Source: Fimicolochytrium jonesii (taxonomy: Eukaryota). From it: a stretch of 64,000 nucleotides of DNA. Position numbers and translations under genes: made by a program. The notes beneath the pieces are model-generated. The model was not told the DNA's origin. It worked only from the letters and a program-made list of their open reading frames with translations, and did not search any database. Below are positions 12,621 to 58,530 of this stretch, piece by piece; positions within the stretch are counted from its first letter, which is position 1, and each line of letters opens with the position of its first letter. The stretch is taken from positions 1,550,001 to 1,614,000 of the forward strand of contig NW_026515669.1 in assembly GCF_025526975.1 (NCBI RefSeq). Reading direction: 5' to 3'.

Positions 12621-13002
12621 CTCTCAGACGCCGGACGACGCGTTGGTCCGCCACAGAAGAAACACTGAGGCACTCCTCAACGGGCAAGCCCACCTTCCAC
12701 CTGCCCCCGCATCGCCACATCTCCTCGTTTTCTTCCTCCCGAACGCTTCTTTTCCCTCAACCAGGCCGTGTGATAAAACAGGTGAGTGGGGTGCGATCGT
12801 CTCCACACTCTTAGTGCACACCCACAATCACTTGGAACACTAGCGAACCACTCATCTCATACAAACTGCTTTTGGAACTTGCGTTCGGAAAACTCATCCT
12901 TTCACCTACCCTACCTCCATGCCAGTTCGAACATACGGAGCTCGTGACAGTCCCTCAAGCGAAAACACATCCAACAAACGCGCCCACACCGACTCCGACG
13001 CC

Positions 13003-14178
13003 ATGGGCAGAGACTACTATTCCATCCTCGGTGTGGCAAAAGACGCCGACGAGGACGCCATCAAGAAAGCATACCGGAAAGCCGCGCTAAAGTGGCATCC
13101 AGACCGTAACCCAGACAACAAGGAGCTAGCCGACAAGAAGTTCAAGGAACTCTCCGAAGCCTATGAAGTCCTATCCGACAAACAAAAACGAACCATCTAC
13201 GACCAGTTCGGGGAAGATGGATTGAAGGGCGCTGCAGGAGCCGGTGGTGCAGGGCCAGGTGGTTTCCCAGGAGCCGGCGGTGCCGGCGGATTCCCCGGCG
13301 GCTTCCCTGGCTTCCCTGGCTTCACGTCAGGAGGAGGTGGTCCAGGTGGTGCGCGCACATTCAGCTTCAACATGGGCGGACCAGGCGGCGGTGGTGCTGG
13401 ATTCCGACCGTTCCAGCCGTCCAACGCTGAAGACATCTTCCGTCAGTTCTTTGGAGGCGCCAGCCCGTTCGGCGGTATGGGCGGCGGAATGGGATCGGAT
13501 TTCGATGACGATGAGGGTGGAATGGGCGGAGGAATGGGTGGCATTCCTGCCGGTTTCTTCTCTCGCGGGGCTGGAGGACCAGGTACCGGCGCACGCGGTG
13601 GACCAGGTCGCGCAGGCGCTCAAACTCCCTCCGCCAGCTCCTCCGTTCAACGTCAACTCCCTGTCTCACTGGAGGACCTAAGCGCAGGTGCCACCAAGAA
13701 GCTAAAAGTCACCCGCAAGAATCTCGACGGCACATCATCGGAAAAGGTCCTCGCGGTGCAAATCAAACCGGGATGGAAAGCAGGGACAAAGATCAAGTTC
13801 GCAAAAGAAGGCGACGAACTACCCCCCCAAGGCAGCGGAAACGCCCAAGACATCGAATTCGTCATCGAAGAGAAACCCCACCCGAATCTCAAACGCGACG
13901 GCGACCATCTCCGCACAGACCTCACAATCGACCTCGTCGAAGCCCTCACCGGATTCAAGAAGCAAGTACCCGTCCTCAACGGCCGCACCGTCGAGGTATC
14001 CGGCGCGCAAGGTCCCGTACCCGCGAAACCGGGAGAGGAGATCGTCGTTAGAGGGGAAGGCATGCCCATCTCGAAGCAGCCGGGCAAGAAGGGGGATCTG
14101 ATCGTCAAGCTGAATGTCAGGTTCCCGCCGACGATCTCGCAGGCGCAGAAGGAAGGCGTCAAGAAGCTTTTCGCGTGA
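13003..14178 (+). CDS. SIS1: Class B Hsp40/DnaJ co-chaperone (Sis1/DNAJB type)
   Basis: J-domain [10 protein letters not shown]...WHPDRN, G/F-rich linker, CTD with [10 protein letters not shown] and GEGMPISK; no zinc finger. Confidence 0.93.
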
Positions 14179-18717: not shown

Positions 18718-19551
18718 TTAGGCGCTGTTGGCGGCGATGGTGCTCTTGATCCAGGGGACGAAGCTGGACACACGAGTGTAAACACCAGGGACACCGGGCT
18801 CGGCGCAACCGTCACCCCACGAGGTGATACCGTGGACATAGAACTTGCCACCGGATGTCGTGTACAAAGGACCTCCGGAGTCACCCTGGCAAGTGTCGAC
18901 ACCACCATTCTTGGCACCGGCACAGATGTTCGAGTCGACGATGTGGCCGGCGCTTCCGTGACCATCGTAGTAGGACTTGCAGGCAGCGTTCGAGACGATG
19001 GGGACGCTGGCCTTCAAAAGCACGCGGGAGTCGGAGCCGCCCTCAGAGGTGTCACCCCAGCCGGCAATCTGAACGGTTCCGCTCTGGGGAACGACGGGAG
19101 CGTCGTAGATGCCGACGGTAAAGTCGGTGGGGCCGTAAGCCTTGTCGAGCTTCAGGAAGTACAACGCGATGTCGTTGTGGTTGAGGTTGTCATCGTACTG
19201 CGGGTGGATGACGATCTTCTTGATCGAGTAAACCAGACCCTTCTCGCTGGAGTCCGACTTGGTCTTGTCGTGACGGTGGACATGGACCTTCGAGTTGGTG
19301 TAGGAGCCACAGTGGGCGGCGGTGAGGAAGACGTTGGGGGCGATGATGCTGCCTCCGCAGTACTGTCCGGGAGAGCCCCAGAGCGGGTTGGTCACGTAGG
19401 CGATGAACGGAATGGTGTAGGGAGTGACCTGGGTTCCACCGACAATGGGGGCTCCGCCTCGGCCGATGAGGGGAGGGCTGGGGGTGGCGGCGGCGTACAC
19501 GGCCGGGGCAGCAGCCAAGGCGCTGAGGAGGAGGCTGGTCAAGGGAGCCAT
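18718..19551 (-). CDS. Secreted trypsin-like serine protease (S1A), intronless
   Basis: Signal peptide, IVGG activation site, catalytic triad TAAHC / DIAL / DTCQGDSGGP with Asp at S1. TATAAAA lies about 90 bp upstream. Confidence 0.95.
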   Translation of the reverse strand: MAPLTSLLLSALAAAPAVYAAATPSPPLIGRGGAPIVGGTQVTPYTIPFIAYVTNPLWGSPGQYCGGSIIAPNVFLTAAHCGSYTNSKVHVHRHDKTKSDSSEKGLVYSIKKIVIHPQYDDNLNHNDIALYFLKLDKAYGPTDFTVGIYDAPVVPQSGTVQIAGWGDTSEGGSDSRVLLKASVPIVSNAACKSYYDGHGSAGHIVDSNICAGAKNGGVDTCQGDSGGPLYTTSGGKFYVHGITSWGDGCAEPGVPGVYTRVSSFVPWIKSTIAANSA

Positions 19552-22500
19552 TGTGTTTGTTCGGTGGGTGGGGCTGGCGATGAAGGAAGGATGAGAGGAT
19601 GAGGAATCAAGAGGGACCCAGGTCGACCTGCCCGGCTTTTATATCCGACGGACCATCGATGTCGCTAGAAACCTTCAGCCTACGCTGATGCCAGCAGTGT
19701 AGTAGACGGCATATTCTCGAAAAGCCTGCTGATGCTACGTTCGTTGCCCACCAAGTATTTGATCAAGGATCGGAGTTTTCACGGCCTGATTGCTCGTGTA
19801 ACTCCCCACTCAAAAAGTGTATGCTGGATATCGACGCCGCCCCCAATATCGACTGGATCAAAAAGTCTGGCGGGCATGCTGCCCAGGGCTACTGTCATCG
19901 TGACATTCCGAGGCTCTAATGCAAAAAGATGACCAACACGTTGCTCCCTGAATTCGGATCAGAGGCTCACCTGTACTTTCCGTTGGTACTAGCTCCCCGA
20001 ATGGCCGATGTCGGTGTCTATACCCAATCGCAGGGGCCCTGCCCCTAGTTCAATGCCGCCAGGCTATGATGCACACATGCTAGCCATTGGCGACCATCAA
20101 TACTGAAGAGCGTACTTTTAGTACCCTTACCGCGGAGAGCGCCGATCTCTGGAGAGAGCGATAGAGGATATCTTCCCCTGGCTGCAAGCGGCGATATCAA
20201 GCGATCATGATCACCCCCGTTGAGCAAGATGGTCCAAACGCAAGCACGGGTGACGTTGCTGCCTTTACGACGTCGTGTTGGATTGGTAATTTAGGCAACC
20301 TCCAAGGCTCCAAGCACTCCGCGGCGTCCCGAACGTTCTAGGACTGTACCGGACGGAGCCTTGAGGTTGCCAATCCGCAAGTGTGAACGTTAAGGAGAGT
20401 CTTGTCCGCGCAGTATCGGAAGACGCGTTTGACAGTCGGACAAAATGCTACCTGTCCGACTGTCCAAGCGATCAAACGATCAAGATTCAAGATCCCTTGT
20501 TGTTCACAAATCACGGCGTCCATGCTGCCCATGACTGGTATTGCCTTGCTATATATATAGTACATATGAAAGGAACACTCTCACGATGGAGGCATCCAAC
20601 ATGTGTACAGTAGGATGTAGGCGGCGGGCGCATACTGTACAGTATGCGAGTACAGTATGTACATATCCGTTGAGGCTCTCATTGTTGCAGCGGCCGGGTG
20701 TTCAATTCAGTCGTGAACGAGAAGCCGAAGAAGCCGATGCAGCGGAATCAGAGGTGATAGAGAAGTAGTGTGAACATGGTGAAGATGCGCGTGGACCATG
20801 AAGTGTGGGCGCATTCGCCCGACGTGCCCGACTCGGGGCCGACTGGACGCAGTCCCAAATCTCGGATCTACGTAAGGGCAATGATGAGAGGTGAGTTCGC
20901 GGACTTTTGTGACGGAGCTTGCGAAGGAATCGACGGGAATGAACATGTGAACCAGAATGTGAACTTGAAACTTGCAAGCCCAACTCACCGCGTCTGCAGC
21001 CAACAGCGTTGGCGTAAACCTCTTGTGCTTCTTCTTTCGCTGCTCACAGTACAGTATATCCCGCCTGCACTGGAGTCTGGCGAGCCTGCCTTCGGATGGT
21101 TGAAATTCATGAGCGGTCTCCAATGCTGAGTTTTCCGAATCGCGTAACCGAACATTTCCGTTCCCAGTCTTACTTCCCACAAGGTCACGAAGCGCTCCCG
21201 GAATGCACTGCGGACGTGACGGCATAGCGAAAATATAAAGGAGGCTCCTTCAAGATATCCCTGGTTGGAACGGATGGAATGCGACCGTGCGCCTCAAGTC
21301 ACGCCGCCTGGGTCAAGGCAAAGCGAGGAATACCGTCTGTTGTTAACGACTTTCCCCATCACCGAATTATACCTCCGCAGCGAGCAGGGTAAGCCGCATC
21401 GCCTGGATGCGTAATGTACAGTACGCGGGATTCACTGAAGAAGACCGCTACCGGACAGTGTTCGGATCCATTCTCGAAGGCAATCCATCACATTCCGGGG
21501 GAAGATGGCAAATGGAACGGGACGGATGCGCCACGGTCCTGGATGAAGTTCGGCGCTGAGACGTTCACCTTCTCGCCTTCTGGACTCCCGTTTGCTACTT
21601 TGGGAGCGAAACATGCGATGGAGAGCCGCACAATAATATTCTTTGATTTGTGGAAATCCCGCACAATTACCATATGACAGGAATCGCTCGCAAAGCCTGC
21701 CCTAAGAGCGGAAACTGTTTCTTAAAACCATGGGACAAACTCCCTATCAAATGTGGATGCTCCAGGGCCCGAAATTGCTGGATTCCGAAGATGAGCTGCC
21801 TACGCTTACCGTGTTCGTGAAATATGGATGAGGTCAAGAAACGGGAGCCGATGTCTTCCTCCTCCTATATATCATCCTCTCACGGAAGCAGGCACAGTAA
21901 CTCCAGGCAGCACTGGACGTACAGATGATTGCAGGGCATAATCCGGGTTAGATTGAGCCGGGTTCAGAGAGAGGCAGAATTTTGGCCCCATCTGCACAAG
22001 ACAATTCCCATCTGCTTCGATATGTCCTAGCCGTGCGAGCTTTGTTGCCTCGTGCTCACATGAGAGGTTTGGTTTAAAAATTCAGGAATGGTTGCACGAC
22101 TCATTAGAGAGGAGAGTCAGCGCTATGAGGTTTTCTCGGTAAGCGGGTTACAGCAATAGACTCATGGAGCCAACAGCCAACGTCCGAAAAAGGTTCGGAC
22201 GACTGCCGCCCAAAGGTCAAAAAACACGTCCACACCTGACCCCACAAGCGCGTTGGTGTAAAAATGTGCGAATTTGCTGCAGCTCCTCGTGACGAGGGAG
22301 GAGCCGCACAAATGTGATGGATGACGCGCACACGTCTTGCGCCCCAAGGGAAAGATCTCAGCGCGCTATGAACGCGAACAGATGGTGACGAAATGCGGCC
22401 GGCTGCCACGGCGCCGGGCACAAAAATGGCCATTGTTGTTGCACGGCAATGTTTCAAGACTTCTTTCCGGAGAAAAAAGCGGAACCAAACGCAAGTTACG

Positions 22501-23193: not shown

Positions 23194-24129
23194 ATGTCCT
23201 TGGAGTCGCAAATCAGTAAAGACACCGTCGTCGATGTCGCCGAGCACGATGTCATCAACCACGTCAAGCTGTCACCGCTCGTTCGTTTGCGTCGCCAGAT
23301 GAGGTGAGATAGTTTTCATCGCCGTGTTTCATCCAGAGGAACAGTCGAACTGAATGAATGCGACTTTTCATCACCCAGGGAAGAGCTTGCCGAATTTTTC
23401 GGTACCTTCATCTTGATCATCTTCGGAAACGGCGTCTGCGCACAGACATCTCTCCACAAAAACACGGGAGAGTACTTATCCATCAACTTCGGATGGGCGA
23501 TCGGTGTGTTGATGGGCATCTACGTCAGTGCGGGGATATCAGGTGCACACCTGAATCCCGCCGTTACGATCGCCAATGCCGTCCATAGCAACTTCCCCTG
23601 GCGGAAAGTCCCCCGCTACTGTGCGGCCCAGGTGTTGGGCGCTTTTATGGGCGCCGCGATCGTATTCGCTAATTATCACTCTGCACTCGACGCCTTCGAC
23701 GGAGGTGTTCGCCAGACGACTGGCGACTTAAAGACCGCCGGCATCTTCGCCACCTACCCCCAGGCCTACCTGACCACCGTCGGCGCCTTCTTCTCGGAAT
23801 TCATCACCACAGCTGTCCTCATGATCGGGCTCTTTGCCATCGGCGAGAGCAGGCACGCTGACCGCCCCAAGTCCCACTCCGCCATCGCCGTCGCACTGCT
23901 GATTCTCGGTCTCGGTATCTGCTTGGGCGCTCCCACCGGCTACGCCATCAACCCTGCCCGCGATTTTGGCCCCCGTCTCCTCACCCTCGTCGCCGGCTGG
24001 GGCACGGACCCCTTTACGGTTAGCAACTACTACTTTTGGATCCCAATCGTTGGCCCCATCACCGGCGGTATCTTCGGAGGCTTCGTATACCAGGCTTTTA
24101 CCGAGTATGACAATGCCCCCATATTGTAG
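23194..24129 (+). CDS. Aquaglyceroporin (MIP family), 2 exons
   Basis: ISGAHLNPAVT and GYAINPARDFGPR; Asp after the second NPA-R marks the glycerol-facilitator type. Intron at about 23304-23378; TATAAA at 23043. Confidence 0.93.
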
Positions 24130-24776: not shown

Positions 24777-27171
24777 TTACTTGGCGTGGTGATAGATAAC
24801 GCCCGCCTCGTCATCCAGCTCTTCGTTCTCTGCGAGCACGGCCATCAGGACGTTGAGGATGCTGCCTGCTGGATACCATCTGGGTGCCAGCAGTTGCAAT
24901 ACTTTGAAGTGCGCCTCCAAATGTGGGCGGAAATCGCTGCCGAAGTGTGGTGGAGGTTTTATCCTCATTGCGATGACCAGCACAAGAGCCGAGTAGAAGC
25001 TGAAGAGCGCGAGCCACGGACCTTGCGTGAGACCCTCTGGGTCAAGATCGGCAATTTTGCAGAGCAGGGCGGCGTTGCAGATGGCGTGGTGGACGCAGAT
25101 GTTGTATGCTCCAGAAGCGTATCCCTTTGTACCGAGTTGCTCTGATGGTGAGAGGGAAGCGAAGCCAGTATCGAGAATGGTCGGCAGGTGGAGAGAGATG
25201 TGCGCTGCGTGGTAGTACACATGCATCGTTACGAGCTGCCATGATGGCGGGCTCTGACTCGCTGGTGACGCCGCAAACTGGTTGATTCGATCGATGTTTT
25301 GAACCCAGTCGGGTAATGATGAGAACCACGCAGTCAATGCGTTCTCGAGCTCCGAGATGGACTCCATGCGTGCTCGATTGATTGCTGCCGTTGGATGTAC
25401 GTCTTGAGAGGCGATCTTAGCCGCGCGCTCCGCCATCGACCATGCGGAGCCTCTCAGCGCCTTGATGCGCGCGTATAACTTGGTCAGTGTCACCATGTTT
25501 TCCGCGCTATCGAAGTCTTCACCAGGTACGAAGGCACTCAACCGAGGAAGGCCGTCGAGGGTAGCAACCGACTGGAAAAGGGCTTCTGGAGCCGGCGCTC
25601 GGGGGGTAGGTCTCCAGCCTTGAAGGCATGGAGTCCGTTCAGTCAACGGGTGATCTCGCCCATCTATAGACGGCGCCTCAGCAGGAGTGGGTATGGCGCT
25701 GATGATATCCAGCTGATGGAGACATGCAAGTTAGCATAAGGTTCGGCCAAGAGTTAATGCCATCGATGAAGTTACTTACCGACACGAGCAGCCACCACAC
25801 CCTTCTCCGGGTCTCTTTCAATAGCCACGGTAGCACACCGTGCACTTCTTCGACATCAGGATCTATATTCAGGTTGATATGCCGCGCAATTGACAAAGCC
25901 TGCGCAAGGTAAGCGTCTTTCGAGGATCCTCCTGTGAACCGAATGTCAGCAATGAGGCTTCACACAAAAGAGCTGAATGCATTTGCAGCAGGACAACAAA
26001 CCTCTTCCACTTTGGGAAACCGCGCAAGCTAGCCACACCGTGCCAACAACCAAGTCAAGCGATGGCTCGTTGATGATGGTGTCAAGAATCTCTTGTCCCC
26101 GTTTTGCGTATGCATTGCCAGCAGCATACGTTGGCAGTCCATTCTCAGCCATGAACCGCTTGATAGCTGGATGATCTGAGAATGGTGCAGCCATAGCACA
26201 CATTCCCATGACGAGAAACTCTGAGTGGCTCGGTCGCTCCAGGCACAGTTTCGCCGTGATTGTGCTGTCGTGGTAAGGGGAAGCCCATATGCTGTTTTGT
26301 ATGAAATGGGGGAATCACATTAGTCAGATCATGGCAGCGTCCATCACGATGTAGGGCGCAACTTACAGTGGATTTATGATGCGAAGGAACAGACGCACCA
26401 ACTCCATTTGCAGGTCTGGCGCAAACAGATCGTCGTGTGCAAGGAAAGGACGAGCCACAGAACGCGATGGTGATACCAGCTCTGTCACCGTCCGGACATA
26501 ACTTGCAGATAGTGGTGGTAGGTCTTGCTCCGCACGACTGTAACTGGGTCGATGGCTTCTTCGCATGTCCTGATTCTGGTGTTCACGAAGCGGAGTTGCC
26601 GGAGAATCATCTGGTTGCCCTTTGTTCTGCAACCAGCCTTCGACTTCTCTGACTCTGGCTTCCAGCATTCGAACGTATCCTGCCAGCATGGCGGTGATCA
26701 ATTAGTCCAAAGGATCGAGCCTCCAGCTTTCTCGGATGTTGTAGAGCCTCACCTGTCGTGTCGTAACGCCTCCCGCGTCTACTTGAACTGTTTGTGCGCT
26801 CCGATCCGCCGTACGTGCAGGTGTCTCCAATGTCGTGTTTGACGCAAGCAGAACATGCCGGCTTGCCCGAGTCGCACTTGATCTTCAATCGGTAGCCTGC
26901 GAGAAGATGGAAACCATTATCAGCACCTGTTTTATATCTAAGCGGCGGCACTAAGCGCAAATACGGTAGTCCTTCACTTACATCGATCGCAGGCCCAAAC
27001 CTTATTGGCGCCAATAGCATGTCTGAGGCGTTGTGCGGTGCGATATTGACGAGAAGCTGCTGTGCTGGCTGCCCCAGCTTTCGGCCTAGAGTCCGACACG
27101 CTGTCTTCTGGTCCTGAGAGTTCGTCGCTATAAGCGCGGTGAAACGAAGTGTTTCCCACGCTGTCCGGCAT
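24777..27171 (-). CDS. Zn(II)2Cys6 fungal transcription factor, multi-exon
   Basis: Spliced ACDRC..LKIKCDSGKPACSACVKHDIGDTCTY, dimerisation helix YVRMLEARVREVE and middle homology region ETRRRVWW. Confidence 0.88.
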
Positions 27172-28228
27172 CCTTCCCTTATTTATCCACGTTTCGGTGT
27201 ATTTGAATTCGTATTACTTTTGAAGCTGGACTACGTTTAGAGACGGTATTAAGTGTGCGCTGGCCGAGAGTGTTATTCAGCACTGAGATAGAATTGGCTT
27301 AACGCAAGGACGAGGTATACGAGAATGCGAGAGCAATTGTGTTAGACTTTTCCTGTAGGAAGGGTAAGGGGTTGGGGTTGGGGCGCGGGGGGCGTGCATG
27401 CTGTACTTATGTACATGGATATATTTCCGGGGGAGGGGATCGGTACCGTGCCTTTCTGTTTGTCCACGGCTACCCTCCGATGAAGGTCCGAGCCGAGAAA
27501 AGTATGATGTACGCGTGGATCGACCATGAGGCACAATGGAGCGGCAGCCGGAGGTCTCGGGGAGTGAGCGCGCCGAGACGTCCAAAGGCATATGGTTTGG
27601 CGTATCGTGAATATCCGCCGCATTTCTTTGAACGTTTTGGGCAATGAGGATCTCGATTTTGATTAGGGGTCCTGATTCGGAGGTGCGCTTCCGAGTTACA
27701 TTTTGCGATTCCATTCCCTCCTCAATGCTCCTCGGATGCTGAAGAATGGGTTCCTTGGTCCGGAGTCCCGCGTCACTCTTTCCGGTTACTAATGGTCATA
27801 TGGATCGAGAAGCGTATGGCCAGTGAACAAGTCGGAGCTCAAAAATGATCTGCAAAGGATCTACTTGCATGACGTCATAAAGTCAAGGGAAGCACATTTA
27901 CCGGAGAACCGGAGACAAGATCCGCGGTACAGTACAGAAATTTACGCCATGGGAACAAGGGGGGCATTACTGCCGCATTGCGGCCCGAAAGAAATGAACA
28001 ATCGAACGATACTCGGCGCTGTGGCAAGAACGCAAATATCCCGGGTCTGATGAACGTTAAAATGTGGATCCCGGACTCGCTACGTACGACGGACATGAGG
28101 GGCAAAACCCAAAAGATTCCCGCGATATCTGTCGCCATGCATGCACTGGTAAGGGACTTCAAAGGAAAGAAATGCAATATAGACTCCAACAAAGAGAAAT
28201 CTGGACCAACGTCGGCCCCCCCTTTATG

Positions 28229-28273
28229 TATACATGTCTCCCTTATACATGTCTCCCATATACATGTCTCCCT
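28229..28273. repeat. 3 x 15-bp tandem repeat TATACATGTCTCCC(T/A)
   Basis: Three direct copies start at 28229, 28244 and 28259, in a divergent intergenic region. Confidence 0.9.
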
Positions 28274-28720
28274 GATGGACCTGCCCCATCTCACCAAAGC
28301 GAAGAAGGTTGTCTGGGGCAGAAGGTTGTCGGGGTTGTCGGGGGCGGTGTCTTAGATGTCGTCATTATCCAAAAACTGATATCCGGGTACTTTCCGGCCT
28401 GCGTAATAGTCATTATCACAGAGATGTGTCACGTGACGAGGAACTGACGGCGCCGTCAAATATGTTCTGGAACCCGATTGACGATACGATCACGGCCTTC
28501 GACGGAAAGCGAAAGCCCATTAAGCTCAATCTTACACGACCCACACAGGGCGAAGGGTCGCGTATTCAAGATGCAACTCGGTTCAGAGGGCCATCGGGGA
28601 GGAAGGGAAAGGGGGGGGGTTTTGGTCTAGCTTATCTACCAGCGTGTCCCTTGCAGTTCAGCAGAGGACAATACTTTGTCAAAGTCGAATGTCCACCGTT
28701 GCTAGCAATCGCCTCCCAAG

Positions 28721-31700
28721 ATGGCTGCAATCTTCCACTTCCTCTGCGTGCTCTTGACCGCTGGAGCTGTGGTAGCTGCGGGCTCGCAGTTCAACCTGAC
28801 CATTCTCACCACTTCCTCGACTGCGGCGGAGGTCACGCAGCTGCCTTCCGGTCGAACATATGGAGGGTACGCCACACTTCAGACGGCCCTTTCGAAAGCC
28901 AGGGTATGTGCGGCTTGCAGTGTCCCTTCGCTGAGCTGCGCACCCTAACTCCCACAGCAGGTCAATCTCGCCAGCACATCGACACCGACTTTGGCCATCC
29001 ACGGCTTATCTGCGCTGGGGATGTACTCGTTTTCTCAGTACTACAAAGGTCCGTTCCCTGAAGATTTTTGGACCTAAGCCCACGTCTCAATGGTCTGGGC
29101 ACTTCTGTAGGCAAGAAAGAAGCCACGTACTTGAGCAGACTCGGATTCCAGTATACTACATTTGGAAGTAGAGATTTGTTCCATGGAACGGAGGTCTATG
29201 CAAACAACTTCCTCAACAACACGTCAGTTGCATGCATCTCATCAAACACATGGATCTCCAAATCCTCGGCATTGTCCAACCTTTGTCAGCGCTACAAGGT
29301 CACCACATTGACCGATGCAAACACGCAGACGACCTTCAAAGCCGCCATCGTCTCGTATGTGGTCACAGACTTCTGTAGTTTCACATTTTGCGCCGAGTCA
29401 GCATCCTCGCCTGCTCAAGTCAAGGTGTTGGACATAATACCCGAAATGACGGCGTTCATACAGCAACTGCAGTTTCAGGAGAACCCGGATGTCGTTATAG
29501 CGATGTCGAGTGGGTTAGATCTCAATGGGGACCTTGCTATTGCGTCCGCGGTGCCTGGAATAGATGTGATCATCACGAGCGACGATAAGACAGTGAGCTC
29601 GAAGAGTTTCCCGATAGCTGCTACTGGAGCTGAAGGTGAGAATCTGGATCTGATATCTTCTTTGCGCGTTGAAATTGAACGTAAACATGGCGTGCAATAG
29701 GCGGACCCGTCCTCATAGTAGCTGACATGACACCCGAAGGCGTACGCGGCCTAGCCCGGGTGGATCTGCAGTGGAGGAACGGTTCCTTGGCCGCATGGTC
29801 TGGCACCCGGGACCCGTTGAATTCCTGCCAAGGCGATCCGTCTCCTTTGGCAACATGCATTCCGCCCGATGCGGCGTTCGTATCTGACATTGTTGCGGAT
29901 TATGTGGAAGTCGATAAGGCGTTGGAAGTCGTTATTGGAAGCACAACGGCGCTGTTGAATGGCGCCCAACTTCCGAATCACCCTTGCAGGAGGAGCGACT
30001 GCACTGCTGGGAGCGTTGTCTGCGATTCCATGTTGTGGGTGACCGACGGTCAGTGCGATGCTGCGATACTCAATGGCGGGAGTATCCGGGATTCACTTCC
30101 TGCTGGTAATGTGACCATGAAGAACATCATGGGGATGTTACCAAACCACAATACCATCTCGGTGACTCGTTTGAGGTATTTATTGCTTTGCCGCGAGTTA
30201 GTTCATACGAGTGGCGGTCACATGCTGAGCTTTTCGCAGAGGAATAGACGTCTTGGATGCATTATCCAGTGGTTTGAGCAAAGTCTTCCCACAGGGGAGT
30301 GCTGGTCGCTTTCCCCAAGTGGGTAATATCCATTATACCTACAATGTCAACAACAAGCCGGATGCACTTCGCCTAGTGTCCGCACAAATCTTCAATCGCA
30401 CCCAGGGAACGTATGTCGACATTGATCCCAATGCGATATACAATATCTGTGTGAATGACTACATGCTGAATGGCGGAGATGGGTATTCGATGTTGCTGAC
30501 CAATGCTTTGAGCACCTTCTCTCAAGGCACACAGTTGGATGTCGCCCTCAGGTCCTATATGGCGGTAAGTTTTGGGAGGGCAGGAAGTGTGGGTCATGCT
30601 CTAATGATGTGGATTGTGCAGGCCCAGTCTCCCATATCTCCTCCGGCTGGTCAACGTATCCTTGACCTTTCCACGACGAGCCCATCCTCCCCTCCGCTCT
30701 TGGGGTCTTGCAAATTTGCGACATCTGTGACCAACGCTTCAAGCATCCTTTTGGACCCTTGTGATGGAGGTTTGTAATATGGCTCTGCTGCCTTAAACGC
30801 AAATATTGAGAACTCATTGCTGCACCTTCATCAGGATCCCGTTTCCGGACGAATGTCTCCTGGACAATCACGCCGACTATAACCTCCCTGCGCTCCATCA
30901 ATCTGTCATTCGGAAACTTTACGATGGATCCAACCACGGACGTCCTGTATCTATACAATCCGGCGACCAACCAGCTCCTGCAAGTGCGCTCACCCGCCGA
31001 CAACGTCTCCATGGTCCCAGCGAACTACACATCTCTGCCGTCATCAGTTGGCATCCCAAATGTAGTGTCTGTAGGCGTGCGATTCGTTGCAAATCGCCCG
31101 CTTACCGGCAGCGGGGTGAAGCTCAGCTACGCCGCTCATGACGGCTGTCCCGGAGGATACATTCTTGACAACGGCAATTGCGTCGGTTGCCCAGCGGGAA
31201 CATACGCCGGGCTCCTCGATGTTCAATGCACTGCGTGTCCGGCTGGGAGCGTTACGACCACTAGCGGGCTGGAAACGTGTGCTGTTTGCCAAGAAGGGAC
31301 TTTCAGTGACGCGGCAGGGAGAACGCAATGCCAGACGTGCGACAGGGGCCGGATATGGATTTCGTCGACGCAGTGTCAATGTGCTGCTGGCACCTTTTTC
31401 AATGATTTTACCTGTCTGCGTAAGTCTATTCCGTCTTCTCGTGAATCTGGGTCCCTGCTCATATGCTGACTGGTTGGTCGCCGATACGACAGCGATTGGG
31501 TCAGGCTCGTCCCAAACCGGGCAGATTATCGGAATAGCTCTTGGTCTGATTGTACTAGGTGCCGGTATTGGATTTTATGTCTACAGGTATGGCTACTCTT
31601 GCGGTTTTCATTTCCTTCGTTCTGCGCCAACCCTGCGTTGTACCCCAGGCGACGTATGGCGGCCATCAAACGGAGACAGATGGGAACGTCGAAACAGAAA

Positions 31701-32762
31701 GCGTAAGACTATCTCGATGCCATAATTTCTATGTTCTGATAAAAAGCTGAACTTTTATGGTAGGCTGAAGGCTGATGTTGCCATGAAGCGCCTGGTGCAC
31801 GATATCGTCTTGTCCGTGATGCAGATTGGAATGGACGCAGGAGAATGTGCGCTGGATTGGTATGTTTTGACCTCGACGTTGTATTGGGAGCTTCAATCTC
31901 CCGGTCACTTATAAAGTACGCTACAGGCGCGCGTTTCTCAGTGTTCCCGAAGATGAAGGAACCAGACTGTTCTTCATTGTCGGATGTATCTTCCAGAGTT
32001 TGTAAGATCACTATGGTACTCACCTTTCCTCTCGCATCTGAACTGATTGTCTCATCCGCATAGGATCACACTTCTGTCCGCCGCGCTACGAATCTACAAC
32101 ATCCAGCGCCTCTTCCGGACGCGTTCTTCTGGGATCAAGCTGATAGCAGCCGGCGCGCGGACCACATCCGTCGAAGCATTGAAGCGCATCCAGGACGCTG
32201 AGAACGACCCTGATCTGCAGCTGTCGCTTCTTTCACTGAACAGTTTGCGCCAAAAAGTGATTATAACCATCGCGGTCGCTGCTCCGGGCATGGTGAAGAG
32301 TGCGATGATGCTGCTCGTCAGTATTGTGGTAGCGAAACATCAAGGGAGCGGTAAGGTGTCTTGCCTCATTTCCCTACTTTTCAATAGTGCGTGTATCTTG
32401 ACCTTTTGAACTCCATAGGCCTCACCCTTTTGCTCGCGTTTGGCTTCAGTTGCCTCGTGTTTGCCATCAACTTGCAAGAAACGTTAGGATGGTTTCACCT
32501 TCGGGATACATACAGGAAAGAGAAACAAGCAGCCGACACCAAATTGGCCAGTCTAGGACTTCGAAGGCCAGACGGGTATCATCACCGCACGCAGACCGAG
32601 AAAGATGCGGTCGACTACTCGGATGAAGAATCTAAGGCTGGGGGCGGCGGAAAACGCAGAGAAATCGAGGCCCCGGGAGGGGAGACCCCCTCGCCGGTAG
32701 ACGGGGTTGCGACTGAAAAACATATAGCATCCCATGCATTGGAAGACGAAGAGAACCCATAG
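28721..32762 (+). CDS. Receptor-like membrane protein: signal peptide, degenerate 5'-nucleotidase (both domains), CUB-like, Cys-rich repeats, multi-TM; many exons
   Basis: 5'-NT C-domain motifs NGGSIR, GRFPQV and NDYMLNGGDGY. CUB-like VSWTIT..INLSFGNF..DVLYLY..VRFVAN..GVKLSY. CPAGTY/CPAGS/CQEGTFS repeats. TM IIGIALGLIVLGAGIGFYVY plus further hydrophobic exons up to stop 32762. Exon chaining was done manually. Confidence 0.78.
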
Positions 32763-33661
32763 AGAGATTGACGTCTAATTCCATCGCATTTGACTTTACT
32801 CGTTGATGCTCGTTCCCTCGAAACTTCATACCCGGAAACGAGTGTGTTTGAGACTTTGAGTCGGTGAGAATTTGACGCGTTTTATTTGATATTTTTGCCG
32901 GTTCGCCGCTTCTTATATCGCCCACCAGCCGCACCGGCTTCCGTGGGCGTCCCGCTGGTGGGCATGCAGGTTACTCAGAACATGCACGACTGGTAGTCTA
33001 GTATATATTTAGAAAGGGAGGGGCTACGGCATCCCCGGTTACATACCTACAAGTTCAGTTCCCCTGCCCGTCAGCATCAACCTCATAATGTTGGAATGGA
33101 AACTAGGCAGAAGGGCTTTCTCGCGAGGGGAGTTCAAAGGTACTGCAATTGTATTGAGGGGGTGTGATTGTTGTGGGCAAGTATCGCTGAAAGGTTATAC
33201 TTCATCTATCAATTTATAGGAGGGGAATGGTCGTCCTCGCTTCAGGGCCGCATGGACCGAGAGACTCTCAAGGCTAGAATACAGTACTTGAACTCAACCG
33301 CCGGTAAGTCCCCATCCCTTGTACAGTATTGCGAGCGAAGCGAGCAGAGAGGTGCCACCAGAGAAGAGAGCAGCAAAATTGAGAACGACTCATAGCACCG
33401 CTGGCGAGTTGCAGGCAATGTCTGCTTGCAGCGTGCCCTGATCTATTGCGAGCAAACTGCGAGCATCGCATGTGTCGGACGACGATTTCTTGTATCTTCG
33501 TAATCGATGCAATGATGATGGTGATGCCACTTTCTTCATAGTATACCTAATCGGCTGTCTTATTTCTGCATACAGGCAAAAAGGTTCCAGCCAACATTTG
33601 GTACTCCCTCCCTCCCCTAGTTATCTTCATCATATGGATTTCTGTCATCTTTGGCGTCGTA

Positions 33662-35217
33662 ATGAAGGGAAAGAGCTGCTTCGACAACAATTCTCAACCA
33701 TCGTCCGATTTCACCTTGCCGTCCGACAGCAAGCCTTCTGCGTCTGCCGCCTTCCTCCCGGCGTTCCCGTCCGTGGTACCTATGAGTACGCCCGCTGCTG
33801 CTGCCAGAACGACTACCGTACTTGTGTCCGTGACGGGCTCGGCATCTGTGCCGCTTGCAAACGCCACGCCAGCACCTGCCACACTATCGCCTGCCACCAA
33901 CACCAGTCCCAACTTGCCACCCGCGGACAGCCCTGCCCCCAGCAGCAGCAGCAATGGCGGCGGAAGCACCAGTGGCGGTGGCTCTTCGTCTCCGCCGTCA
34001 TCCTCCGGGCAAAAAGATATAACTGCATGTACATTCGCTTGTCCGAAGCCTCCGTTCGGTCAGTGCACGCAGCCCGTTAGTTCAGACGCTTATTGGGCCT
34101 GCCGCCAAGAAATTTCAAAGCCCTGGAACGACTGCGTCGAGAGGTGTTATGGCAGGACACCATCCAAGCGTCGCAGCCTCCACCGACGAGACTCGTGTAC
34201 GAGTTCAACACCTTTCAACGGGTAAGTCATGAGGGCTTGGGTTCGTTTGGCAGGCGGTGCTGGAGGGGCCGATTACAGTGAGAATAAACGACGAGCATTC
34301 GCATTTTTCGCGGCCGAAGACTCGCGACTTGCGCCATAGGCGCAAGGACCTGATCGCGAGCAATATCCTGCGGTCAACTCTCCAACTATGTGCCGGCGTT
34401 ATCTCATCGTTCTGTTTTCTGTTCTCGTCATTCATTAGCTTCCTCGTTCCCATCATCATCGTATTTGTCGCGTTCATTGTCGCCGGGGTGGTCATCTACT
34501 TTATGCGACAGAACGATTTGACGAACGCCAGAAAGGCAACAAGGAAAGCTCTGGAAGTCCTGAACGGTCAGGATAATCCCCGCGGTCTATTCTGGAGGTA
34601 CAACGAGATGAAGAGGACGACGACGACATACCAAGGGGGTCGACGTACAGGCCAAACGAAGGAATACTTTCCGGTAAGATACTTGATTGCACCCACACCA
34701 CCTGTTTTGGTTCGCCTCGCTAATTAAGCTCTCATTCCCTATATCGCAGATGGCGGAACTGGAAGTCATGCCCATCCCGTCCTTTTCGCTCTCTGGTATG
34801 GACGACGCAGTGTTTACGCCGCCGATGGCGTCCATGTCGCCTCGTGTTGGAACGGTGTCACAGAGCGAGTTCGCCGCGCCCTATGCGTACCAGCAGGCCC
34901 CGTTGACGGGAACGTCCATGGCGCCGCGTACGCAACCGGCGGCAGCCTTCGCGGCCCCAGCACGCCCGGCCTCATCGGCTATATCCATGTCGTCCGTCCC
35001 GGGACCCTCGCGTCTGCCTCCAACAAGTACAAGACAGTACCTGACTTCCTCACCGTCCGCCAATGAAAGGGAAAGCCACGGATCGTCCGCGAACCCGTTT
35101 ACGGACGACGCAAACCTCGCGGATGAATACGACCCAGAAGCCCCGCCGCCCGCTTACGACTCATTCTCTCGCCCGTCGAGACCCGCTCAACAGTCGTCGA
35201 AAAGGGGAAAGTTTTAG
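33662..35217 (+). CDS. Hypothetical single-pass membrane protein (Ser/Thr/Pro stalk, Cys motif, TM, C-terminal PPxY); 5' exons upstream unresolved
   Basis: Three ORF pieces joined by GT-AG introns (about 34223-34438 and 34674-34749). TM FLVPIIIVFVAFIVAGVVIYF; tail APPPAYDSF. Confidence 0.6.
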
Positions 35218-36250: not shown

Positions 36251-37513
36251 TTTTGATTTTGTTTGGGGTGTAATGAGGACGGTGGGTTTCAGAAAAAGGG
36301 TTTGCGTTTTGTGGGGTTGCTGTTTTCGTTTCTGTTCTGAACAGGGAAGTTGGGAGGGCCTGCCTTTTATAAAGAGCTCCTGAGCTCGCAGCCCTCCAGG
36401 ACTGAATACGTCATGCCAATTTCACAGACGCGCCTGTCACGATCTCACAAGCCCTCCGCAACCTTGCGCGAGACAAGACAATAGGCGTGACGTATGATGA
36501 ATCTCGGCCCTTCTCTCCTTTCCACCAAGCCCCCGCTGTCCCAGAACCCAGACAGACCCAAGCCCTCCCGGACTCCCGAATCGGCTCTTACTCAGCCCTC
36601 CCCCGCCGATCGTCGTCCTTTCGGAGTCTCCACGTATGCCCAAGGCCCATGACTTGCAAGTTGACAAGGCCTGCATTTCGCCATTTGAAGTTCTAGATCT
36701 AAGCTCAAAACGGGAGGCGAAAGGATTCCAAATCATCGCAAAGGCGCTCCGTTTTTGGCATGGTGCGGATGTTGAGAAGAGCCGACAGGCCATGCACGCG
36801 AGCAAAAGCTAGCACAGACTTCACCGACTAACTTCCTCATGCATTCAGGTACTTAGTTCTCAGAGGTTTCCTGGCGAGGAAGCGAACGCCCAGCTGGTAG
36901 CGAGTAGGCGACGGCTGAGAATGTTCCGTTGCTGGCGAGTGTTGCCTCTCGCCGACCCGTTGTGAATGAGTCTTGCTCCATGTCCAATGCGGCCAGAGTG
37001 TGGGGGTTAGGGTTAGGATGAAATAGCTGTTTGGCTTAAATAACCGCGCGTAACAAGAACCGTGGCATGACAAGCCTGCAGCCAATCAGCGACGCGACAA
37101 TTTGGAAACGGGACGTGAGCAGATGCGCGCCCTGCGGGTTGCTGCACTTCGGCCGGTGGGGAGAACGGGTGAAGAGTCTCGACTCTCGAGACCCATAGTA
37201 GACACAAGCCGACATGGCAAGAGCGGCCCACACCGCATGAGATACTGTACTCTAAAAGTCACAAGGATATCCAGGGTCGGAGTAGATAAGGAGGACAGGG
37301 CGGGCCTTGGCACCACTTCCGCTTTCGTGCAATTCAAGAACATTTCTGTGTAAAAACTTCCTCACCAAAAGGTTCCCGCAATTGGCCAGGATATCGCCAA
37401 GTGGATACTAGATAGATACGAAGAGGAGTTGCAGTCGAAACCCAGACAGTAGAACACACGGGCGAGGCCGTCGTCGAGCAGTTCAACAACGTCGAACAGG
37501 GAGTCCAAAGGTC

Positions 37514-40500
37514 ATGAGTCCCACGCAGTCAGCGGAACCCGACTTGGACCCGTACTTGGCGGGTTTTCAAGCCGCAGCCCGCACCCTATTCGCAGAGCAG
37601 GATGCTCGTACTCGACAGCTCCTGCAGGAGCAAGAGGAGCGCTATGAGCGGAAGATCCATGTCATGCTGCAGCAGAACACCCAGCCGGTCTATGTTGCGA
37701 ACCCGCATATGTCTGGCGCTATGTTCCCGCAGCTCGGACCTCCCGGCCAGCAACTTCAACCCCACCAGCAGCTTGCACCACAGCTTGGTGGATTTCAACC
37801 ACAGCTGGTTCTCCCGCCGAATCAGCTAGCTAATCAACATACGCTGTTGACGAACACATCTGTACCGTCCAGCTTATCGCCATATGGATTCCCAGCCGCA
37901 TCTCCGATGGATTCCCACGACCCTTTCGCCACTTATACCACCATCCCCGGGACTACCAATCATTCCACCCTTTCAGCGCCAGCGTTCTCCTACCTCGACA
38001 CGCTGAATCTCGACACGGACTTCAATATGCTCACTGAACAGATATTGGACGCCTCGGGCGTGATCCCAATGGATCTTCACACACCTTCACTAACATCGGT
38101 AGCAGTGAAGTCTGCTGACGGCAAATCAAAGTCGAAAAAGTCCAAGCGTAAGGCGTCAGTGGATAACAGTGTCGGTGGCTCAGTGGAGGGTGCCAGCAAC
38201 GATACCAGCTCCTCGAAGAAAAAGAAGACGAGCAAAGGCGACGACGAAACAAAGACAAAGAGGAAAGCTCGGACGAAGTCCGTATCGAAGGCCGGCGCTG
38301 CCGTCAAATCGCCAACTCTGGCGACCGGTGAGCCCATGACAGAGTCGGCGCCTGCCACAATCAACGGTACACTCAGCTCGGCCCCGGGTTCGGTTGAGCC
38401 CGCAGTGTTCATCGCGGCTAGTGCTGAGAGCACATTAGCGCCTATGCTTCAACCCATTGCGACGTCCGCACTGCCCTTACCGGACGGCAGCGCCTTCGCT
38501 CTCACATCTGCACCAGCATCGATGAGCCCGATGACACTTCCCGCTGGAACCATCCCAGACGCAACACAGAGTCCGGCGATGGTACCCGCCTTCCAGATGG
38601 CGTTCAGTGCGGCACCAACAACGCCTGATTTGACATTGTATTCCGAAGTAGCACCCGACCATGGTCCCGTGTCTGCGCCAGCCGCCACATCCTACGGGCC
38701 ACCGCTGGCGATCTTGCCGGCACTTGCAGATGCCCCGAAAGAGGTCCCTCCGGCAAAGCTGCCCTTACCCCGCCTGGCCAAACCAGTGCAACCACCTCAA
38801 CACTTCCTCGCAGCGCAGATCCTGAAGCACCAGCGGAAAGTAGCCCACAACGCGATCGAGCGTCGATATAGGAACAACATCAACGATCGTATCACCGAAC
38901 TGCGATCAGTCGTTCCCGCATTGAATGGGCCGAAGATTCGGGATGCAAAGGGTTCAAAGAGGAACCGTCCTGAAGACGAAAGCAGCTCCGAAGACGAGGA
39001 CGAAGGCGAACTCATCGACGGTGTTCCCGCTGCTAAGAAGCTCAACAAAGCGACGATCTTGAAGAAGAGCACGGAATACATCTTGCACTTGAAGTCTTCC
39101 AACGACATTGTCCTGGATCAGAACGCAAAGTTCAGGGAAATCATCCGATCTTTAGGCGGAGCTGAGATCCTTCGCCAGTTCGATGCACTCCAGACCCATC
39201 AGCAGCGCGCCAGCATCCAATTCGCTCATCAGCAGCAGCAGAACGACCTTGGCAATCACTCCTCCAACGACGAAAGGACCGCGCCGATCTCATCAGAGAG
39301 CTCAGCCTCTGGCTCTCCATCACCCGAGCCAGCCAGTCCTCGCGACGACGGTCAAAGCTTGAAGATGATGGTTCTCTGCGGCATGTGCGTCGGCATGCTT
39401 TGGGCACCAAGTCCGTTCGCCAACGCCGCGGACCATCACCACGGAATGGCCAAGGTGTTCGGAAACCCCAACACATCGTCAGCCATTGCGAACCTCGGAT
39501 TTGTTGCCGCCTCACTTCCCGTGCTCTACCATGTCGCTCAGATCTTCTTCCTTATCTTTGGCATGTTCCGCGTCTTCCGATGGGCCTCCCCGTCATTGGG
39601 GGCCGGTGTCACTTCTCGCATGGCGAATGCGTCAGCCGAAGCGCACGCACTCGTAAGTGATGCACCGTACGAGGAGCGCTATAAACAGTTGTGCACTGTA
39701 CAAGGCAGGAAACTGGAGCATGCGGGATGGTGGACAGTCATCTTGGAACTGCCAAGGTACTTTGCATCGCAGTACCTACCTGCGCGAAAGACGTCGACCG
39801 GTGTTGCGAAGTTGTCGTTGATCGTTTTGGAAGCTAGTCTTCGAGGTAAGTGATTGATCTGTAAGACACCCATGTCCCGGATTCTTTGCTAACCACCATA
39901 TGCCCGCTATAGAACCGAAATCGTTGCCGCCAGCGCATCGCGTATACCTCGCACTCAACACGTTGAGCCTGGTCAACCGCATACCAGCAAACTCGGCTGA
40001 GCTCGTCTCGTTAGGACACTTCCAGGCAGCCGTCAGTCTGCGCGTCGCCCTCACTACCGTGAAGTCTCCCCTCGCCAGCCGCATTCTGCGTTCCCGCGCC
40101 GCGAAATGGTTCTCGGCCGCGCTGAAAACCGATAACTTCGAATGGGCTAAAGGTGTTGAGAAGGCTGACCTCGTCACGACTTTCGAGAGTGACGCATGGA
40201 TCGACGTTGCGGATCCGGTACGATCTCTGAAGGACGCTGCTGGCAAGCTTCAGATGCGTCAAATTATCTATCAACGCGACGCCATCCAAGCACTGCGTCC
40301 CTTGCCGTCGCCCGGCACATCGGCTGCGCTCACTCTTGTTGAGAAGGTCCTTGGCGCGTCGGCTAGCCGCAAACATCCCGCCTTGGTGGTCATTGCGCTG
40401 TATGCCTCGGGCTCGACGCAGGAAGGCACCAATATCGTCGCTCACCTGATCTCTGAAAACCAGCTGAAAGGCACCGTTGGGCTGGCCCTGTTGACCTACG

Positions 40501-53728: not shown

Positions 53729-53779
53729 GTTTGATCTGCTCAACAACCCCCAGCCACTGTGCCTCCACGCCAAATCACC

Positions 53780-57700: not shown

Positions 57701-58530
57701 ATCGGCGTTCCATCCCCAGAGCGATGGACAAACCGAGCGGACCAATCAGATTCTTGAGCAATACCTTCGCTGCTTTTGCAACTATCAACAAGATAACTGG
57801 AAGGAACTCTTGTCTTCTGCTGAGTTCTCTTACAATAACACCATCCACTCCGCCACCCAGACAACCCCCTTCTACGCCAACTATGGGTTCCATCCTCGAT
57901 TCAGTCTGGCTTCCGCCACCACAACCGAAGCCCTTAATCCTGCAGCCGAAGCTCGTGCCAACCATCTCAAGGAAATCCATGAACAGCTTGCCACTGAGCT
58001 CAAGGAGGCCCAAGGACGCATGAAGCGCTTTGCCGATGCTAAGAGGGCACCTGGCCCAGACATGAAACCCGGGGACAGTGTCTGGCTCTTACAGCGGAAT
58101 CTCAAGACTCTCCGACCTTCCCAGAAACTTGATCACCGTAAGATTGGCCCCTTCACAATCACGGAGAAGATCAACTCGGTCACATATCCCCTCAAGCTTC
58201 CCCCATCCTACAAAATTCACAACGTCTTCCATGTCTCCCTTCTTGAACCACGTTTCACCATTCCGGAGCGAACTGAGCCAGAACCCACCCCACCAGAAGA
58301 AGTCGAAGGACAGGAGGAATGGATTGTGGAAGACATTCTTGACTCCCGTATTCGACGCACGCACCTTCAGTACCTCATCAAGTGGCAGGGATGGCCAAGC
58401 TCGGAGAACACATGGGAGCCAGTGGAACACCTTGCCCGCTGTCAAGAGCTTGCAGTTCCACCAAAAGTACCCCGACAAACCCCGACCAAAGCCTGCCAAC
58501 ATCAAGACAACATCCGGACGCCGTGGCTAA
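54679..58530 (+). pseudogene. pol: Pol of element 1 (PR-RT-RNase H-IN-chromodomain), disrupted
   Basis: [38 protein letters not shown] integrase, SDRG, DGQTER and chromodomain YLIKWQGW..SENTWEP. In-frame TGA at 55618 and frameshifts near 56077, 56610 and 58450. Confidence 0.93.

What the first reader, a model, noticed from the sequence alone, without database searches (positions are those of the whole stretch)
28721..32762. Catalytically dead 5'-nucleotidase ectodomain fused to CUB, Cys-rich repeats and a multi-TM module: candidate extracellular nucleotide receptor
Seen: the 5'-NT fold motifs are in register but all metal-ligand motifs are replaced. LTILHTNDxH becomes LTILTTSST, DAGD becomes HGLS, GNHEF becomes GSRDL, ALSH becomes AMSS and GGHSH becomes TSDDK. 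The substrate-binding C-domain motifs (NGGSIR, GRFPQV, GGDGY) are well kept. A CUB-like domain, Cys-rich repeats, one TM and about four further hydrophobic segments follow. Established: the 5'-NT C-domain binds the nucleoside and the two domains move as a hinge. Inference: a clamshell-type sensor for AMP/ATP/adenosine, architecturally analogous to class C GPCRs but built from a different fold, perhaps for zoospore chemosensing.
Basis: partly seen in the sequence, partly recalled or inferred. Interest (0 to 1): 0.78.

Follow-up and report, generated by a model that had tools for sequence, protein, structure and literature searches.

The report
Dead nucleotidase fused to half-scramblase
Fungi with swimming spores share a surface protein whose nucleotide-cutting enzyme domain has lost its metal site but keeps part of its binding pocket and is joined to a membrane domain predicted to resemble half of an animal lipid scramblase, so it is likely a previously undescribed kind of sensor for nucleosides or nucleotides outside the cell.

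Summary
A 13-exon model (28721-32762, +) gives one open 1093-aa protein: signal peptide, 5'-nucleotidase (5'-NT) two-domain clamshell, CUB domain, Cys-rich stalk, one TM helix and a four-helix membrane module. The public annotation splits it in two (875 + 214 aa), but 9 full-architecture relatives from Spizellomycetales, Blastocladiomycota and one unnamed record are single proteins, and the exon that neither public model translates is conserved. Metal-site loss is family-wide (0 of 10 keep D85, H220 or H243), so this is not decay. The ribose and base residues N390, F500 and D506 are kept in 10 of 10. New here: the membrane module looks like one repeat of the XK-related (XKR) lipid scramblases, with three acidic residues in XKR8 register and an invariant Lys near the Xkr4 E310K activating position. 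That match is only suggestive (Z 8.6-11.4, tied with generic bundles, no sequence hit). Most likely a nucleoside/nucleotide-binding sensor coupled to an XK-like output; ligand, output and zoospore role are untested. I found no description in print.

The parts
28721..32762 (+). Whole gene, 13 exons (28721-28903, 28958-29048, 29111-29635, 29701-30175, 30240-30564, 30622-30769, 30835-31419, 31493-31586, 31649-31702, 31764-31859, 31927-32001, 32064-32350, 32419-32762), 1093 aa
   Evidence: open frame, 12 GT-AG introns; exon-by-exon identity to 6 orthologues
28721..28783 (+). Predicted signal peptide (aa 1-21)
   Evidence: hydrophobic N-terminal segment; coordinates
28787..29876 (+). Metallophosphoesterase-fold N-domain of 5'-NT with the dimetal site replaced (aa 23-325); R112 at the catalytic-His position, invariant D249 at the H243 position
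29928..30666 (+). 5'-NT C-terminal substrate-binding domain (aa 343-548): R363, N391, R396, Y499, D505 kept; N415 replaces the stacking Phe
   Evidence: Pfam 5_nucleotid_C E 1.6e-32; residue table
30700..31142 (+). CUB-fold domain (aa 560-685)
   Evidence: fold match of orthologue model to Kremen, neuropilin, cubilin CUB domains, Z 10.8-13.9
31143..31494 (+). Cys-rich stalk (aa 686-778), ephrin-receptor-like repeats
   Evidence: Pfam PF07699 E 2.9e-7; similarity to mastigoneme Mst1 repeats E 9e-15
31522..31797 (+). TM1 (aa 788-808) and very basic juxtamembrane helix (aa 809-838, 10-12 K/R in all 7), the best conserved stretch of the protein
31798..32477 (+). Four-helix membrane module (aa 839-999), predicted single XK-like repeat: acidic helix with D840, D851, E854, D858-W859; TM3; long cytosolic hairpin; TM4 with P958-x3-K962; TM5
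31927..32001 (+). Exon 11, translated in this frame by neither public gene model, yet conserved (9-14 of 24 residues identical to 6 orthologues)
32478..32762 (+). Conserved post-membrane helix (aa 1000-1032) and a poorly conserved, predicted disordered tail

Best explanation
The gene encodes one conserved surface protein of zoosporic fungi whose 5'-nucleotidase domain lacks the metal site and likely binds an outside nucleoside or nucleotide without cutting it, and the binding would be relayed through a CUB domain, a Cys-rich stalk and one membrane helix to a membrane domain predicted to be half of an XK-type lipid scramblase. Shown: the fused layout, its conservation across two fungal phyla, loss of the metal ligands, retention of the ribose/base residues, and an acidic membrane helix plus an invariant membrane Lys. 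Inferred: (1) no hydrolysis; (2) ligand binding closes the two-domain clamshell as in CD73/UshA, with R112 and D249 possibly taking over contacts in the old metal site; (3) the motion pulls on TM1 and its basic cytosolic helix, which runs straight into the four-helix module; (4) the module, alone or as a dimer that would rebuild the two-repeat XK shape, disturbs the bilayer (lipid scrambling or an ion leak) or recruits a cytosolic partner. The Lys may be a built-in stand-in for the Ca2+ that bridges TM1 and TM3 in Xkr4, which would leave the ectodomain as the switch.
For: One open 1093-aa frame. Nine relatives carry ectodomain and membrane module in one annotated protein of 1038-1270 aa (P0002-4, P0016-18, P0020, P0023, P0024), from Spizellomycetales and Blastocladiomycota. 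Metal and catalytic residues kept in the family: D36 0 of 9, H38 0 of 9, D85 0 of 10, N117 1 of 10, H118 1 of 10, D121 0 of 10, H220 0 of 10, H243 0 of 10 (Asp in 10 of 10); the 10 comparators keep D36, D85, N117, H118, D121, H220 in 10 of 10, H243 in 9 and H38 in 6. Pocket residues kept: N390 10 of 10, aromatic at F500 10 of 10, D506 10 of 10, R395 8 of 10, R354 7 of 10; these bind ribose, base and phosphate in CD73 (passages of PMC12586806 and PMC7508162). The 9 dead ectodomains in the tree fall on one side of a 100/99 branch against the 10 comparators. The membrane part is more conserved (50-75% identity) than the N-domain (36-48%). XK likeness: Xkr4 is rank 1 of 48,161 chains for the module (Z 11.4, rmsd 3.1, 147 aligned); XKR9 Z 10.7 and XKR8 Z 8.6, rmsd 3.0, 152 aligned, each with the N-terminal repeat; ungapped reading from the XKR8 range start puts D12, D26, D30 on D, E, D; the acidic pattern is in 12 of 13 proteins that cover the helix and PGxxK in 11 of 11 that cover TM4; the best family-bearing Atlas hit is XK-related (0.83, 25% of members). 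E310K makes an activated Xkr4 Ca2+-independent (passages of PMC10495444).
Against: No binding, activity, expression or localisation data. F417, one of the two base-stacking rings, is Asn in 7 of 7 Spizellomycetales proteins, and R354/R395 are lost in 3 and 2 of the 3 distant relatives: the pocket differs by clade and the ligand may not be a nucleotide. The public annotation splits this locus into 875 + 214 aa and one Geranomyces annotation is split too, at another place. The XK match does not stand out: Xkr4 is tied with designed bundles, talin and other four-helix proteins, designed bundles score up to Z 12.8, Foldseek gave no E below 0.001, profile searches found no XKR sequence in the PDB up to E 10 or Pfam family, and the Atlas score is under 0.9, a lead only. 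The acidic residues of XKR TM3 (E137, E141 in XKR8) that scrambling needs (PMC8500837) are absent as acids; the Lys sits 2-3 residues from that position by ungapped count, so the E310K equivalence is inferred. This protein itself lacks the Pro three residues after the Lys that 10 of 11 relatives-plus-self carry. Purified XKR9 showed no scrambling (PMC8298096), so the fold does not guarantee the activity. Models are of orthologues (P0017, P0004), mean pLDDT 74-75.
Confidence: 0.45

Rival explanations
1. The protein is a surface sensor or adhesion/scaffold protein, but the old 5'-NT cleft now binds something other than a nucleoside (a sugar, sugar phosphate, amine, cation or a protein), or serves only as a structural spacer.
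For: F417>Asn in 7 of 7 Spizellomycetales; phosphate arginines variable in distant relatives; invariant new Asp at the H243 position and a kept acid at E119 could bind a cation or amine; CUB and ephrin-like repeats are typical protein-interaction modules.
Against: The three ribose/base residues N390, F500, D506 are kept in 10 of 10 across two phyla, and the distant relatives keep both stacking rings.
Confidence: 0.25
2. The working part is the membrane module, a lipid scramblase or small ion/solute path that is constitutive or controlled from inside; the ectodomain and TM1 act as a fused chaperone or anchor, as Basigin does for XKR8.
For: Membrane part is the most conserved region; XK-like fold and acidic helix; XKR8 works with the single-pass protein Basigin (PMC8298096, PMC10495444).
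Against: A mere chaperone would not need the ribose-binding residues kept in 10 of 10; only one of two XK repeats is present and the TM3 acids are missing.
Confidence: 0.13
3. The ectodomain is still an enzyme with changed chemistry (one metal held by D249/D113, or metal-free), tethered by the membrane module.
For: Invariant D249, acid at 113 in 10 of 10, Arg at the catalytic position in 7 of 10.
Against: Five to six of six metal ligands and the His-Asp pair are replaced, and the replacements differ between clades, unlike an active site.
Confidence: 0.1
4. The locus is two genes (875 + 214 aa as annotated) or a decaying copy of a 5'-nucleotidase.
For: Public annotation P0001 and P0019; split annotation P0028/P0029 in one Geranomyces assembly.
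Against: Intron 10 has canonical GTATGT...CTACAG ends; exon 11 is conserved in a frame neither model uses; 9 relatives are single proteins; the two annotation splits fall at different places; ligand loss is shared by all 10 family members.
Confidence: 0.05

Closest known systems
Ecto-5'-nucleotidase CD73 / UshA / Thermus 5'-NT (PF00149 + PF02872; PDB 2z1a, 7qgm, 1ush)
   Same: Two-domain fold over about 500 residues (Z 34.2; E 6e-30); N390, F500, D506, and here R354 and R395, kept.
   Different: Dimetal ligands and His-Asp pair replaced; F417 is Asn; continues into CUB, Cys-rich and five predicted TM helices.
XK-related scramblases XKR8, XKR9, Xkr4 (PF09815; PDB 8xej, 7p16, 9boj)
   Same: Four-helix module superposes on the N-terminal repeat (rmsd 3.0-3.4, 145-153 aligned); three acids in the register of XKR8 D12, D26, D30; kinked third helix with Pro.
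   Different: One repeat instead of two; Lys instead of the TM3 glutamates; long cytosolic hairpin; fused to a large ectodomain; no detectable sequence similarity.
Class C GPCRs (recalled; analogy only)
   Same: Clamshell ectodomain, Cys-rich stalk (weak NCD3G match below cut-off), multi-TM output.
   Different: Clamshell is a 5'-NT fold, not a Venus flytrap; five predicted TM helices, not seven; an added CUB domain.
XKR8-Basigin complex
   Same: XK-type membrane body plus a single-pass helix bearing an ectodomain (PMC8298096).
   Different: Here fused in one chain; ectodomain is enzyme-derived, not Ig.
P2X receptors of zoosporic fungi
   Same: Putative extracellular-ATP sensors reported in Spizellomyces, Allomyces and Batrachochytrium (passage of PMC3853471), which makes purine sensing plausible in these fungi.
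   Different: Unrelated fold; trimeric two-TM channels.

Membership tests
Active 5'-nucleotidase (CD73/UshA) | Metallophosphoesterase N-domain plus 5'-NT C-domain fold | tested here: met
Active 5'-nucleotidase (CD73/UshA) | Six metal ligands D36, H38, D85, N117, H220, H243 (roles partly recalled) | tested here: not met
   0 of 6 kept in this protein; at most 1 in any of 10 family members
Active 5'-nucleotidase (CD73/UshA) | Catalytic His118-Asp121 pair (recalled) | tested here: not met
   Arg and Phe here; D121 kept in 0 of 10, H118 in 1 of 10
Active 5'-nucleotidase (CD73/UshA) | Substrate pocket R354, N390, R395, F417, F500, D506 | tested here: inconclusive
   5 of 6 kept here, F417 is Asn (roles)
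Active 5'-nucleotidase (CD73/UshA) | Hydrolyses nucleoside monophosphates | not testable with these tools
   needs assay
XK-related (XKR) family | Four-TM repeat fold | tested here: inconclusive
   Xkr4 rank 1, Z 11.4, but tied with generic bundles; XKR9 Z 10.7 (63), XKR8 Z 8.6 (119); Atlas 0.83 (118)
XK-related (XKR) family | Two internal repeats, eight TM helices (PMC12334663, PMC8298096) | tested here: not met
   only four helices after TM1
XK-related (XKR) family | Acidic residues on TM1 (XKR8 D12, D26, D30) | tested here: met
   D840, E854, D858; pattern in 12 of 13 covering proteins; register by ungapped count from the aligned range, no residue-level superposition available
XK-related (XKR) family | Acidic residues on TM3 (XKR8 E137, E141; Xkr4 E310/E313) | tested here: not met
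   no D/E in TM4 of 7 of 7; invariant Lys instead
XK-related (XKR) family | Sequence match to PF09815 or to solved XKR chains | tested here: inconclusive
   no hit; profiles were shallow (6 and 12 sequences)
XK-related (XKR) family | Lipid scrambling | not testable with these tools
   needs cell or liposome assay
Class C GPCR | Venus-flytrap ectodomain and seven-TM domain | tested here: not met
   ectodomain is 5'-NT fold; five predicted TM helices

The most novel reading that the evidence does not exclude
An ancient fungal receptor class in which a disarmed 5'-nucleotidase clamshell senses extracellular adenosine or nucleotides and directly gates a half-XK lipid scramblase (or ion path) that carries a built-in Lys in place of the Ca2+ bridge of animal Xkr4: a ligand-gated scramblase, used by zoospores for chemosensing or settlement.
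Probability: 0.15. Interest if true: 0.93.

Novelty: categorically new. Interest (0 to 1): 0.74.

Why it matters
The rating refers to the architecture; the function is untested. I found no described receptor that uses the 5'-NT fold as a sensor or a single XK repeat as output. If it senses nucleosides, it names a candidate for how swimming fungal spores detect damaged cells or food, testable in Spizellomyces. If the membrane module scrambles lipids, it is a natural minimal 'half-XKR' with a natural E-to-K change, a direct test of whether the N-terminal repeat suffices for scrambling and how XKR proteins are switched on. It also corrects a split public gene model.

Tried and rejected
RNA evidence: no RNA holder listed, so splicing is not confirmed by reads. 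No whole genome was held, so copy number and the presence of an active 5'-NT paralogue in this genome are unknown; no second copy in the window. Homodimer prediction of the membrane module: no verdict. Foldseek on the module: only generic bundles, none below E 0.001. Profile of the module against PDB sequences: EphA2 TM peptide (E 0.07-0.09) and acetylcholine receptor gamma subunit (E 0.014), rejected as weak and topologically inconsistent. First Atlas search (P0002 795-1050) gave unnamed clusters at 0.82 or less. Metagenome contig scan with the module alignment: 367 pattern matches, none confirmed. A search with the dead N-domain exon found only the protein itself among 1076 candidates. No Dikarya hit among 1.84 billion representatives (10 hits at E up to 0.001), but the profile had 6 close sequences, so absence is weak evidence. 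The long upstream frame 28276-29061 and opposite-strand ORFs were not pursued because the ATG at 28721 gives a signal peptide matching orthologues. phmmer aligns motif II one residue off from MAFFT (vs 88); either way no Asp is present. Rows left out: P0012 (1287-aa fusion) from all alignments, P0016 from the tree and from the D36/H38 counts (it lacks the N-terminus), P0027-P0030 from the residue table; the tree had no active eukaryotic 5'-NT as comparator, so origin (for example from bacteria) is not addressed.
Full report
Gene structure. Reading the window (three-frame view) and joining exons at canonical sites gives 13 exons, 12 GT-AG introns of 54-73 nt and one open frame of 1093 aa from the ATG at 28721 to the stop at 32762. 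A database protein, P0001, is identical over its first 858 residues apart from one residue at the first acceptor; it is annotated in the chytrid Fimicolochytrium jonesii (Spizellomycetales). It ends at 875 aa because it reads into intron 10, and the rest of the locus is annotated as a separate 214-aa protein, P0019, whose last 209 residues equal model residues 885-1093. Three things favour one gene: intron 10 has ordinary ends; exon 11, which neither public model translates in this frame, is 9-14 of 24 residues identical to six orthologues, like its neighbours; and relatives are single proteins. No RNA run was listed, so this is not confirmed by reads.

Family. Searches found six full-length orthologues in Spizellomyces, Powellomyces, Thoreauomyces and Geranomyces (1038-1140 aa). 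A profile of their membrane part against 1.84 billion representatives gave 10 hits: P0002, the two pieces of this locus, three more full-architecture proteins (P0020, unnamed, 1174 aa on a 3668-base contig; P0023 Blastocladiella; P0024 Sorochytrium) and four fragments (P0021 Borealophlyctis; P0022, P0025, P0026 unnamed). All named sources are zoosporic fungi of Chytridiomycota or Blastocladiomycota (for four of them; the rest by their genus names). In the Geranomyces variabilis cluster 3 of 5 members are full length and 2 are halves of one split annotation, broken inside the CUB region, not at intron 10.

Ectodomain. Both 5'-NT domains are present by sequence and by fold of the orthologue model (P0017, mean pLDDT 74.8). 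The residue table (CD73 numbers taken from the chain numbering, metal roles partly recalled) shows the dimetal site gone in the whole family: D36 0 of 9, H38 0 of 9, D85 0 of 10, N117 1 of 10, H220 0 of 10, H243 0 of 10, and the catalytic pair H118 1 of 10, D121 0 of 10, against 9-10 of 10 in the comparators except H38 (6 of 10). H243 is Asp in all 10 and H118 is Arg in the 7 Spizellomycetales proteins, so the old site is altered in a conserved way. In CD73, D506 and N390 bind the ribose, F417 and F500 stack the base, and R354 and R395 reach the phosphate and ribose (passages of PMC12586806 and PMC7508162). The family keeps N390, an aromatic at F500 and D506 in 10 of 10; R354 in 7, R395 in 8; F417 only in the 3 distant proteins. 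So the distant members look like nucleoside binders (both rings, fewer arginines) and the Spizellomycetales members keep the arginines but lose a ring. A tree of 19 ectodomains separates the 9 dead ones from the 10 comparators with 100/99 support (no active eukaryotic enzyme included). The loss is old and shared, not decay of this copy. CUB is confirmed by fold and the Cys-rich stalk by Pfam.

Membrane part. After TM1 comes a stretch with 10-12 K/R, then four long helices. The first is acidic (4-5 D/E, all four of this protein's on one helical face); placing it across the membrane puts both basic loops and the tail inside. Identity to orthologues is 64-75% in the juxtamembrane helix and 50-65% in the module against 36-48% in the N-domain. 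Before the fold results I noted that the acids have the 14+4 spacing of XKR8 D12, D26, D30 (recalled, then checked in PMC8500837; note written after one search came back); a D-x13-[DE]-x3-D-[WL] pattern occurs 3 times in the 127,996 six-frame residues of the window, one being this gene. Fold searches then returned Xkr4 (Z 11.2-11.4, rmsd 3.1-3.3), XKR9 (Z 10.7) and XKR8 (Z 8.6, rmsd 3.0), always the N-terminal repeat. Counting without gaps from the start of the XKR8 range puts D12, D26, D30 exactly on D, E, D; for Xkr4 the count is one residue off. The Atlas's best family-bearing cluster is XK-related (0.83). Against this, the Z scores are tied with or below designed bundles, talin and tektin, Foldseek found nothing significant, and no sequence profile reached an XKR. 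I put homology to the XK repeat at about 65%. The TM3 glutamates of XKR proteins are absent; instead a Lys in a PGxxK motif is present in 11 of 11 proteins covering the helix, with a Pro three residues on in 10 of 11 (Met in this protein). In mouse Xkr4, D123, D127 and E310 bind Ca2+, and E310K lets an activated mutant scramble without Ca2+ (passages and abstract of PMC10495444). The Lys lies 2-3 residues from that position by ungapped count, so the equivalence is an inference.

Mechanism. The simplest reading that uses all conserved features is a receptor: a binding-competent but disarmed clamshell, a stalk, and a membrane module with a buried polar site. I give about 0.7 to 'sensor or adhesion receptor of some kind', 0.45 to 'nucleoside/nucleotide sensor with XK-like output module', and 0.15 to the full ligand-gated scramblase reading. 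Purine sensing is plausible in these fungi since P2X homologues were reported in Spizellomyces, Allomyces and Batrachochytrium (passage of PMC3853471). A zoospore role rests only on the distribution.

Literature. Searches: SPPG_01727, 0 papers; chytrid/zoospore/chemotaxis/receptor/nucleotidase, 36 papers, 20 listed, none on this protein by listing, one read by passages (PMC6572847, unrelated cytosolic enzyme); inactive nucleotidase-domain receptor, 7 listed, none relevant by listing; XK-related in fungi, 15 of 145 listed, none containing the term; Xkr with protist/chytrid/fused/half, 0; pseudoenzyme receptor with 5-nucleotidase, 0. All papers were seen as listings or passages, none whole, no supplements; most subscription journals are not covered. 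PMC12334663 and PMC8298096 passages supply the two-repeat XKR definition. Earlier notes of this scan report half-XK modules fused to LRR or Venus-flytrap ectodomains in protists and in bacterial surface proteins; they are unchecked AI notes and were not tested here, but suggest the half-XK module may be a recurring receptor output.

Verdict. Real, conserved and, as far as these searches reach, undescribed architecture; not a member of the active 5'-NT, XKR or class C GPCR families; function inferred.

Noticed in passing
window 37412-39853 (+): bHLH protein (Pfam HLH E 8e-16) with a Tyr in the basic region and hydrophobic segments after it, resembling an SREBP-type membrane-tethered factor (resemblance recalled).
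   Followed up: partly
window 53735-58724 (+): Ty3/gypsy chromovirus-type retrotransposon (gag, RT, RNase H, integrase, chromodomain) whose pol region is spread over several frames.
   Followed up: partly
window 61064-64000 (+): Long ORF with an aspartyl-protease-like stretch followed by an APE-type endonuclease, probably a non-LTR element running off the window; the protease next to the endonuclease is unusual.
   Followed up: no
window 33551-35217 (+): Next gene downstream: predicted small membrane protein with a Ser/Pro-rich stretch, a six-Cys domain, a TM helix and a Pro-rich tail; no Pfam hit for the two ORFs scanned.
   Followed up: partly
window 23308-24129 (+), 24777-27182 (-), 18721-19638 (-), 12844-14175 (+): Ordinary neighbours: aquaporin-family channel, Zn2Cys6 factor, trypsin-like protease, DnaJ protein.
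   Followed up: partly
window 28227-28275: Three short near-identical tandem copies of about 14 bases upstream of the gene.
   Followed up: no
P0011, P0013, P0014, P0015: 5'-NT-like proteins with Tyr or Phe at the H38 metal-ligand position, a separate branch in the tree.
   Followed up: no
window 5293-9258 (+): 1322-codon open frame with no Pfam match.
   Followed up: no
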